DNA of 8,593 nt, from IMG/VR virus record IMGVR_UViG_2657245015_000017, positions 1 through 8,593 of that record; one strand, given 5' to 3'. Position 1 is the first letter of the stretch. Each line of letters begins with the position of its first letter. The notes beneath the pieces are model-generated. The model did no database searches and had not been told where the DNA came from. It saw nothing but the letters and a program-made list of their open reading frames with translations. Made by a program: the position numbers and the translations under genes. Source of the DNA: a virus. Its lineage: Duplodnaviria; Heunggongvirae; Uroviricota; Caudoviricetes. Positions 8,184-8,593 of the stretch are shown here, piece after piece.

Positions 8184-8483
8184 ATGACCGCCTTAAATAA
8201 AAAATGGCTATCGGGTCTGGTTGCGGGTGCTCTGATGGCCGTCTCTGTCGGCACGCTCGCGGCTGAACAAAAAACACTCCACATTTATAACTGGTCTGAT
8301 TATATCGCCCCCGACACGGTGGCTAACTTTGAAAAAGAAACCGGTATTAAAGTCGTCTACGATGTTTTCGACTCTAACGAAGTACTGGAAGGCAAATTAA
8401 TGGCGGGTAGCACCGGCTTTGACCTGGTGGTGCCGTCAGCAAGCTTTCTTGAACGCCAGTTGACTGCGGGAGTTTTCCAGCCA
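8184..8483 (+). CDS. potF: Putrescine-binding periplasmic protein PotF, first 100 codons only (signal peptide plus start of mature protein); gene is interrupted at 8483/8484
   Basis: ATG 8184 preceded by AGGAAAG; translation [100 protein letters not shown] matches E. coli PotF. After codon 100 the expected LDKSKLPEW... is absent in all frames; the frame runs into foreign sequence and stops at 8586-8588. Confidence 0.85.
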
Positions 8484-8593
8484 TTTGCCCGATGTACGCG
8501 CGCGTGGATGAAGACCAGCCCTTCCCGGCTGTGCCGAAATGGTCCATCAAAAAATGGCTTTCGCTACCTGGAGAGACGCGCCCGCTGATCCTT
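8484..8593 (+). pseudogene. lacZ: Internal fragment of lacZ (beta-galactosidase, around residues 495-531), lacking both ends, out of frame with potF
   Basis: The +3 frame relative to potF translates to [37 protein letters not shown], identical to the LacZ segment ...[48 protein letters not shown]... as recalled. The nucleotides also match recalled lacZ sequence (TTTGCCCGATGTACGCGCGCGTGGATGAAGACCAGCCC...). Confidence 0.85.

What the first reader, a model, noticed from the sequence alone, without database searches (positions are those of the whole stretch)
8184..8593. potF is interrupted after codon 100 and joined out of frame to an internal piece of lacZ
The PotF N-terminus is perfect up to ...LTAGVFQP (8483). 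The next 110 nt are lacZ-internal sequence ([37 protein letters not shown]) in a different frame, so the potF frame reads [12 protein letters not shown]... and stops at 8586-8588. This is not a conventional lacZ reporter fusion, which would join near the lacZ 5' end, and lacZ is not linked to potF in K-12. The substrate-binding protein of the PotFGHI putrescine transporter would be non-functional.
Basis: partly seen in the sequence, partly recalled or inferred. Interest (0 to 1): 0.65.

Follow-up and report, generated by a model that had tools for sequence, protein, structure and literature searches.

The report
Chimeric ends on a draft contig
The potF–lacZ join is really in the sequence, but it is one of two short foreign tips on the ends of a small draft-assembly contig, so it is almost certainly a sequencing or assembly artefact and not a disrupted gene.

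Summary
potF (ATG 8184) is wild-type for 100 codons. At 8482|8483 it is joined, with no shared base, to lacZ nt 1498-1608 (codons 500-536). The lacZ piece is out of frame, and the fused ORF stops at 8586-8588.

The biological reading is not supported. The window is the entire 8593-nt contig CDRU01000158.1 of draft assembly GCA_000946335.1. The same thing happens at its other end: 1-168/169 is an internal antisense piece of garL (codons 90-146), joined with a 1-nt overlap to the middle of a P2-like prophage tape-measure gene.

Between the two tips, 169-8482 is 100% identical and collinear with the chromosome of E. coli O111:H21 15A.

Neither junction occurs in 5,426 complete E. coli genomes, 72,556 plasmids, the GTDB species genomes or the JGI metagenome contigs.

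On the K-12 map the three pieces lie at 3.273 Mb, 0.888-0.894 Mb and 0.365 Mb. If both joins were real, they would need a 529-kb inversion plus either a deletion through oriC or a 2.4-Mb duplication.

Two blunt, homology-free, contig-terminal joins of 111 and 168 nt fit chimeric library molecules or mis-joined tiny contigs best. potF is most likely intact in the isolate. Interest is low.

The parts
1..168 (-). Left foreign tip: an internal piece of garL (2-dehydro-3-deoxyglucarate aldolase), CDS nt 268/269-436, codons 90-146, antisense on the window + strand. T169 is shared with the next segment.
   Evidence: 100% match to garL in thousands of genomes, always ending at 169. Exact match to L003 and codon numbering. 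K-12 coordinates (+)3,273,122-3,273,290.
168..170 (.). Left junction, garL | P2-like tape-measure gene interior. Only 1 nt (T169) is common to both parents.
   Evidence: Parent-extension test. The 28-mer across it is absent from genome contigs and metagenome contigs. No complete genome spans it.
169..8482 (+). Authentic chromosomal body. It runs from the 3' end of the P2-like prophage tape-measure gene through gpU, gpD and ogr, then rybB, ybjL, ybjM, grxA, ybjC, nfsA, rimK, ybjN and the first 299 nt of potF.
   Evidence: One ungapped 8314-nt block, 100% identical to NZ_CP077477.1 (E. coli O111:H21 15A). The same gene order with intact potF-potG is seen in L005.
8184..8482 (+). potF 5' part: start codon, signal peptide and residues 1-99, plus the first two bases of codon 100.
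8482..8483 (.). Right junction, potF nt 299 | lacZ nt 1498. It is blunt, with 0 nt shared between the parents and no inserted bases.
   Evidence: parent extension = 0 on both sides. The 23-mer across it is absent from genome contigs and metagenome contigs. None of 5,426 complete E. coli genomes and none of 72,556 plasmids has a place spanning it.
8483..8593 (+). Right foreign tip: lacZ codons 500-536 in sense orientation, running to the last base of the contig.
   Evidence: K-12 coordinates (-)364,808-364,698, 100% identical.
8184..8588 (+). Artefactual 134-aa ORF: PotF residues 1-100 plus 34 out-of-frame residues, then TGA. It was called as a gene and has entered protein databases.
   Evidence: The exact sequence is on record from one contig only and carries UniParc id UPI0007E8FA79.

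Best explanation
The potF-lacZ join is a contig-end chimera made outside the cell.

The 8593-nt sequence is a complete contig of a fragmented draft E. coli assembly. It consists of an authentic 8314-nt chromosomal stretch capped at each end by a short piece of an unrelated single-copy core gene: 168 nt of garL on the left and 111 nt of lacZ on the right.

The most likely mechanism is one of two. Either sheared genomic fragments were ligated blunt-end to each other during library construction, giving chimeric reads that the assembler used to extend the contig ends. Or tiny read-length contigs were wrongly abutted without a gap during scaffolding or contig extension. Either way the joins are not in the isolate's chromosome. 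Its potF, lacZ and garL are expected to be intact, and the 134-aa 'PotF-fusion' protein is an annotation artefact.

Shown here: the three-part mosaic, the terminal position of both joins, their bluntness, their uniqueness, and the map positions and orientations of the parents.

Inferred: the in-vitro or in-silico origin, and which of the two sub-mechanisms applies. No reads were available.
For: 1. The window is identical to the whole contig CDRU01000158.1 of GCA_000946335.1, so the join is 111 nt from a contig end.
2. The opposite end has an independent join of the same kind: garL codons 90-146 abutted to the interior of a prophage tape-measure gene, 168 nt from the end.
3. The interior 169-8482 is one ungapped block, 100% identical to a complete genome in which potF continues normally into potG.
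4. Both tips are 100% identical to ordinary E. coli genes, so nothing foreign or engineered is present.
5. The junctions share 0 and 1 nt between parents and have no inserted bases, IS ends or adaptor or vector sequence. E. coli lacks Ku/LigD NHEJ, and its LigA-dependent alternative end-joining is reported to use micro-homologies as joining points (PMC4872102, read).
6. Neither junction occurs in 5,426 complete E. coli genomes, 72,556 plasmids (right junction only), GTDB species genomes or JGI metagenome contigs. The fused protein is encoded on exactly one contig in a 153-billion-gene index.
7. On the K-12 map the pieces are (+)3,273,122-3,273,290, (+)887,963-894,082 and (-)364,808-364,698. 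Taken as real, the right join is one end of a 529-kb inversion. The left join is a deletion across oriC or a 2.4-Mb tandem duplication. Both would have to lie within 8.3 kb of each other.
8. A real join to single-copy lacZ should assemble on for kilobases rather than stop after 111 nt. The sequences just outside both breakpoints are single-copy in the closest genome, so the ends are not ordinary repeat-induced contig ends.
Against: - No reads, coverage or mate-pair data could be inspected, so the artefact is inferred from anatomy and not demonstrated.
- I could not retrieve the other contigs of GCA_000946335.1 to show that the rest of potF, or an uninterrupted lacZ codon 499/500, exists there.
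- I found no paper describing the assembly or its method.
- The two tip lengths (111 and 168 nt) differ, so they are not simply k-1 overlaps of a single de Bruijn k. The exact assembler behaviour is unexplained.
- A minority real rearrangement in the sequenced culture would also give a short branch that ends soon after the join.
Confidence: 0.9

Rival explanations
1. Real chromosomal rearrangement in the isolate or in a subpopulation of the culture. An illegitimate, homology-free join places potF codon 100 next to lacZ codon 500, for example as one end of a 529-kb inversion between lacZ and potF. This would inactivate both genes.
For: The right junction on its own has the topology of one end of an inversion of K-12 364,809-894,082. 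The sequence is clean, with no ambiguous bases. If the rearrangement coexisted with the wild-type arrangement, the assembly graph would branch and the contig could stop soon after the join.
Against: - A second unrelated blunt join sits at the other end of the same 8.6-kb contig. Its topology (+3.273 Mb to +0.886 Mb) means a deletion through oriC or a 2.4-Mb duplication.
- There is no microhomology, while the E. coli end-joining described in PMC4872102 uses microhomologies.
- The junction is never seen in 5,426 complete genomes or the other collections.
- The contig ends 111 nt into single-copy lacZ.
Confidence: 0.04
2. Engineered or laboratory-derived potF-lacZ fusion: a reporter construct, a gene-disruption cassette, or contamination with such a construct.
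For: lacZ is the classic reporter, and the 111-nt piece is 100% identical to K-12 lacZ, the allele used in vectors.
Against: - The join is at lacZ codon 500 and out of frame, so no beta-galactosidase activity could report anything.
- No linker, Mu, trp, FRT, resistance-marker or vector bases lie at the joint.
- No plasmid record carries the join.
- The same lacZ sequence is 100% identical in many wild isolates.
- This idea does not explain the garL tip at the other end.
Confidence: 0.01
3. Chimera between different samples. The tips would come from another E. coli strain or a K-12 lab contaminant sequenced in the same run, not from the isolate's own DNA. This is still an artefact, but of cross-contamination.
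For: The lacZ tip is identical to K-12. The body is 99.3% identical to K-12 but 100% identical to strain 15A, so an origin in a different strain is not excluded.
Against: The garL tip differs from K-12 at 1 of 169 nt but is 100% identical to many wild strains. The lacZ tip is also 100% identical to many wild strains. With 111-168 nt there is no power to tell strains apart, and nothing requires a second source.
Confidence: 0.05

Closest known systems
Chimeric contig ends and misjoins in short-read draft bacterial assemblies (chimeric library inserts from fragment-to-fragment ligation, or tiny contigs abutted by scaffolding or contig-extension steps)
   Same: Located at the contig termini. The tips are of read-length scale (111 and 168 nt). 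The parents are distant single-copy loci of the same species. The junctions are blunt and homology-free. The joins are unique to one assembly, and there are two independent events on one small contig.
   Different: The library type and assembler are unknown, and read support was not inspected. The two tips differ in length, so a single k-mer overlap rule does not explain both.
Casadaban-type lacZ gene or operon fusions (Mud-lac, lambda-placMu, plasmid 'lacZ vectors)
   Same: A chromosomal gene's 5' part is followed by lacZ sequence in the sense orientation.
   Different: Those fusions join near lacZ codon 8-10. Protein fusions are in frame, or a trp/Mu linker is present, and a complete lacZ follows. 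Here the joint is at codon 500, out of frame, with no linker.
Alternative end-joining (A-EJ) in E. coli (Chayot et al. 2010, cited as reference 54 in PMC4872102)
   Same: It would be the only known native route to a non-homologous join in E. coli.
   Different: As described in PMC4872102, it generates large deletions of up to 40 kb and uses micro-homologies as joining points. Here there is 0-1 nt of overlap, the parents lie 0.5-2.4 Mb apart, and the right join is inversion-type.

Membership tests
Contig-end chimera (library or assembly artefact) | The join lies within about a read length of a contig terminus | tested here: met
   The window equals the whole contig CDRU01000158.1. The joins are 111 nt and 168 nt from the ends.
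Contig-end chimera (library or assembly artefact) | The joined parents are non-adjacent, single-copy loci in finished genomes of the species | tested here: met
   None of 5,426 complete genomes spans either join. The K-12 positions are 3.273, 0.888-0.894 and 0.365 Mb. Both flanks are single-copy in the closest genome.
Contig-end chimera (library or assembly artefact) | The junction is not reproduced in independent assemblies | tested here: met
   Zero exact matches to either junction k-mer in genome contigs and metagenome contigs. No plasmid spans the right junction. The fused protein is on record from one contig only.
Contig-end chimera (library or assembly artefact) | Few or duplicate reads across the junction, discordant mates, and normal-depth reads supporting the uninterrupted parents | not testable with these tools
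No paper on the assembly was found.
lacZ reporter fusion (Casadaban-type) | Joint near the 5' end of lacZ (about codon 8-10), so that active beta-galactosidase is made | tested here: not met
   The joint is at lacZ nt 1498, codon 500.
lacZ reporter fusion (Casadaban-type) | In-frame joint (protein fusion), or linker, Mu or trp sequences with their own translation start (operon fusion) | tested here: not met
   The frame offset is 2. There are no extra bases between the potF and lacZ parents.
IS- or transposon-mediated rearrangement | A mobile-element end (terminal inverted repeat) at the breakpoint, with a target-site duplication | tested here: not met
   The parents abut directly with 0-1 nt overlap. 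The repeat scan shows no repeat at either junction.
Homology- or microhomology-mediated recombination in vivo | Shared sequence of several nucleotides or more at the crossover point | tested here: not met
   0 nt at 8482|8483 and 1 nt at 169. The only potF/lacZ similarity (AAAAAATGGCT, 8199 vs 8549) is 284 nt and 66 nt away from the joint.
Real chromosomal inversion lacZ<->potF | A reciprocal junction (lacZ codon 499 side joined to potF nt 300 side) present in the same genome | not testable with these tools
   The other contigs of the assembly could not be retrieved.

The most novel reading that the evidence does not exclude
The potF|lacZ join is real in at least part of the sequenced culture. 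It would be a homology-free, blunt end-joining event in E. coli, which lacks Ku/LigD, creating one end of a ~529-kb intra-replichore inversion that inactivates both potF and lacZ. The garL tip would then be a second such event or an unrelated artefact.
Probability: 0.03. Interest if true: 0.35.

Novelty: not a real feature. Interest (0 to 1): 0.05.

Why it matters
It has no biological importance. There is no reason to think this isolate lacks PotF or the PotFGHI putrescine transporter.

The practical value is as a caution. A 134-aa 'PotF-LacZ' frame-shifted fusion protein (UPI0007E8FA79) and a 60-aa 'VQRW-GarL' fragment have been called from this contig and now sit in public protein collections. 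Pseudogene or gene-fusion surveys that do not mask contig ends would count them as real events.

A genome scan should check both ends of a window that is a whole contig before interpreting a terminal join. Here the second tip was the key clue.

Tried and rejected
1. Conventional or engineered lacZ fusion. Rejected: joint at codon 500, out of frame, no linker, and no plasmid with the join.
2. Restriction-site or proximity-ligation origin (Sau3AI/MboI/DpnII GATC at 167-170). Rejected: the phage parent reads CTTC, not GATC, at those positions, and the garL parent reads GATA, so GATC is created by the join and is not shared by the parents.
3. Microhomology or template switching. Rejected: 0 and 1 nt overlap. 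A nearby TCCA in both left-hand parents is out of register by 2 nt.
4. Repeat-boundary explanation for the contig ends (a second P2-like prophage, a potF paralogue). Rejected for the closest genome: the tape-measure sequence upstream of 169 and the potF/potG sequence downstream of 8482 each occur once in strain 15A.
5. IS or transposon ends at the joints. None found.
6. Finding the assembly's publication or method. Searches for 'CDRU01' and 'GCA_000946335' returned no papers.
7. Finding the junctions elsewhere. All four collection scans were negative.
8. Retrieving sister contigs of GCA_000946335.1 (the rest of potF, lacZ codon 499/500). Not possible, because look-ups are by exact protein and limited to window-encoded proteins.
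9. I did not test whether the lacZ and garL tips carry the isolate's own alleles. With 111-168 nt that are 100% identical to many of the genomes listed, the test has no discriminating power.

Full report
**Observation.** The region was read directly and translated in all frames. potF begins with ATG at 8184-8186. A script comparing the window with parental loci shows that the ORF 8184-8588 shares its first 100 residues with PotF WP_000126072.1 of E. coli O111:H21 15A (...[11 protein letters not shown]). It then reads [34 protein letters not shown] and stops at TGA 8586-8588.

At the DNA level the potF match ends at 8482 in every one of 5,426 complete E. coli genomes, and none continues beyond it. 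Bases 8483-8593 (111 nt) are 100% identical to lacZ (E = 2e-50). They correspond to CDS nt 1498-1608, codons 500-536, starting at codon position 1. The offset (8483-8184) mod 3 = 2 confirms that lacZ is out of frame with potF.

**What the window is.** An exact-protein look-up of the fused ORF returned a single contig, CDRU01000158.1 of draft assembly GCA_000946335.1. It is 8593 nt long, and its sequence is identical to the window. The potF-lacZ join therefore lies 111 nt from the end of a small contig in a multi-contig draft.

**The other end shows the same thing.** A search with 1-8482 gave one ungapped block, 169-8482, 100% identical to the chromosome of strain 15A (NZ_CP077477.1). No hit extended left of 169. 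Bases 1-169 are instead a 100% match to the interior of garL in thousands of genomes: CDS nt 268-436, codons 90-146, antisense on the window's + strand.

In strain 15A the block starts inside a P2-like prophage tape-measure gene. It runs through gpU, gpD, ogr, ybjL, ybjM, grxA, ybjC, nfsA, rimK and ybjN into potF, which continues normally into potG and potH (also L005).

The contig is thus a three-part mosaic: a garL tip (168 nt), an authentic body (8314 nt) and a lacZ tip (111 nt).

**Junction anatomy.**

| | Left junction | Right junction |
|---|---|---|
| Parent 1 | garL ...GAAACCGAT\|ATCCAG | potF ...TTCCAGCC\|GCTGGAC |
| Parent 2 | phage ...CAGAGCT\|TCCACCG | lacZ ...CGATATT\|ATTTGCCCG |
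| Window | ...GAAACCGATCCACCG | ...TTCCAGCCATTTGCCCG |
| Shared bases | 1 (T169) | 0 |

- There are no inserted bases, adaptor, vector or IS ends.
- The GATC at 167-170 is created by the join and is not present in either parent, so a Sau3AI/DpnII-type ligation is excluded.
- The repeat scan finds nothing at either junction.
- The only potF/lacZ similarity is an 11-nt exact match, 14 of 15 overall. It encodes KKWLS in both proteins (8199-8213 vs 8549-8563) and lies far from the joint.

**Uniqueness.**
- No complete E. coli genome has a place spanning either junction.
- No PLSDB plasmid spans the potF-lacZ junction.
- Exact scans for a 23-mer across the right junction and a 28-mer across the left junction found nothing in the GTDB species genomes or the JGI metagenome contigs.
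- The 134-aa fused protein is recorded from this one contig only.

**Could it be real?** I mapped the three pieces on K-12 MG1655.

| Window | K-12 MG1655 coordinates | Identity |
|---|---|---|
| 1-169 | (+)3,273,122-3,273,290 | 99.4% |
| 2362-8482 | (+)887,963-894,082 | 99.3% |
| 8483-8593 | (-)364,808-364,698 | 100% |

- Read as a real structure, the right junction is one end of a 529-kb inversion between lacZ and potF.
- The left junction is a plus-to-plus join from 3.273 Mb to about 0.886 Mb. That means either a deletion running through oriC or the novel joint of a 2.4-Mb tandem duplication.
- Two such events would have to sit 8.3 kb apart, both without homology. E. coli lacks Ku/LigD NHEJ, and its reported LigA-dependent end-joining uses micro-homologies and generates large deletions up to 40 kb (PMC4872102). 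This is not credible.
- A real join to single-copy lacZ should have assembled on for kilobases rather than stopping after 111 nt.
- The sequences immediately outside both breakpoints are single-copy in the closest genome. The contig ends are therefore not ordinary repeat-induced ends, and the breaks coincide with the chimeric joins themselves.

**Best explanation.** The contig ends are chimeras produced in vitro or in silico. Either blunt fragment-to-fragment ligation during library construction gave chimeric reads that extended the contig ends, or tiny read-length contigs were abutted without a gap during scaffolding or extension.

I put about 0.9 on 'artefact'. I cannot say which sub-mechanism applies, because the reads, the other contigs and a methods description were unavailable. 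The unequal tip lengths (111 vs 168 nt) argue against a simple k-1 overlap and fit read or tiny-contig ends better. That last point is inference.

**Rivals.**

| Rival | Confidence |
|---|---|
| Real rearrangement, possibly in a subpopulation | ~0.04 |
| Engineered lacZ fusion (codon 500, out of frame, no linker, garL tip unexplained) | ~0.01 |
| Inter-sample rather than intra-sample chimera (still an artefact) | ~0.05 |

**Comparison with known things.** The join behaves like, and meets every testable criterion of, a contig-end misassembly. It fails the defining features of the other candidates:
- lacZ reporter fusions: a 5' joint, and an in-frame join or a linker;
- IS-mediated rearrangements: element ends and a target-site duplication;
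- homology- or microhomology-mediated recombination: shared bases at the crossover.

**Verdict.** The biological interpretation, a disrupted potF and a non-functional transporter, is not supported. This is not a real feature of the organism. Interest is 0.05.

The residual novel reading is a genuine homology-free inversion joint in E. coli. It has about 3% probability and would be of only moderate interest. The decisive test is read mapping across 8482|8483 and 168|169, or PCR across potF codon 100.

Noticed in passing
window 1-169: The left contig end is an internal antisense piece of garL (codons 90-146), joined with a 1-nt overlap to the middle of a P2-like prophage tape-measure gene. It is a second chimeric tip, independent of the potF-lacZ one, and was the key clue to the artefact.
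   Followed up: yes
window 2-181 (-), 218-409 (+), 8184-8588 (+): Gene calling on this contig produced artefactual proteins. One is a 60-aa ORF that starts in phage-derived sequence (VQRW) and by chance reads in frame into GarL residues 90-145. Another is a 63-aa ORF that is just the 3' end of the tape-measure gene. The third is the 134-aa PotF-frameshift fusion, which has a UniParc id (UPI0007E8FA79).
   Followed up: partly
window 2079-2533: The RybB sRNA gene lies at 2375-2453 (-) (Rfam RF00110, 105 bits). It sits between the prophage ogr gene and ybjL. Genomes without the prophage match only from about 2362 onward. The right end of the P2-like prophage is therefore about 13 nt downstream of the rybB 3' end, and the rybB terminator region looks like the phage attachment site. 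About 1,100 of 5,426 complete genomes carry the prophage at this site.
   Followed up: partly
window 8199-8213 and 8549-8563: potF codons 6-10 and lacZ codons 522-526 both encode KKWLS, with a 14-of-15-nt match (AAAAAATGGCT exact). It lies far from the junction and looks like chance, not a recombination substrate.
   Followed up: no
cluster of P0001: The 90%-identity cluster holding the fused protein has 233 members. The 15 members listed are all short N-terminal PotF fragments of 54-134 aa. The two longest source contigs are megabase-scale (P0008, 92 aa, BDV54284.1, 5.70 Mb; P0012, 55 aa, VEC53872.1, 4.94 Mb). Genuine potF truncations or frameshifts may therefore exist in some strains, unlike the one here.
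   Followed up: no
L005 3019-6174 (BFNA01000156.1): In this related draft the tape-measure gene is called as a 926-aa ORF plus a separate 63-aa ORF with a gap between them. In strain 15A it is one 3078-nt CDS. This could be a frameshift, a sequence difference or a calling difference.
   Followed up: no
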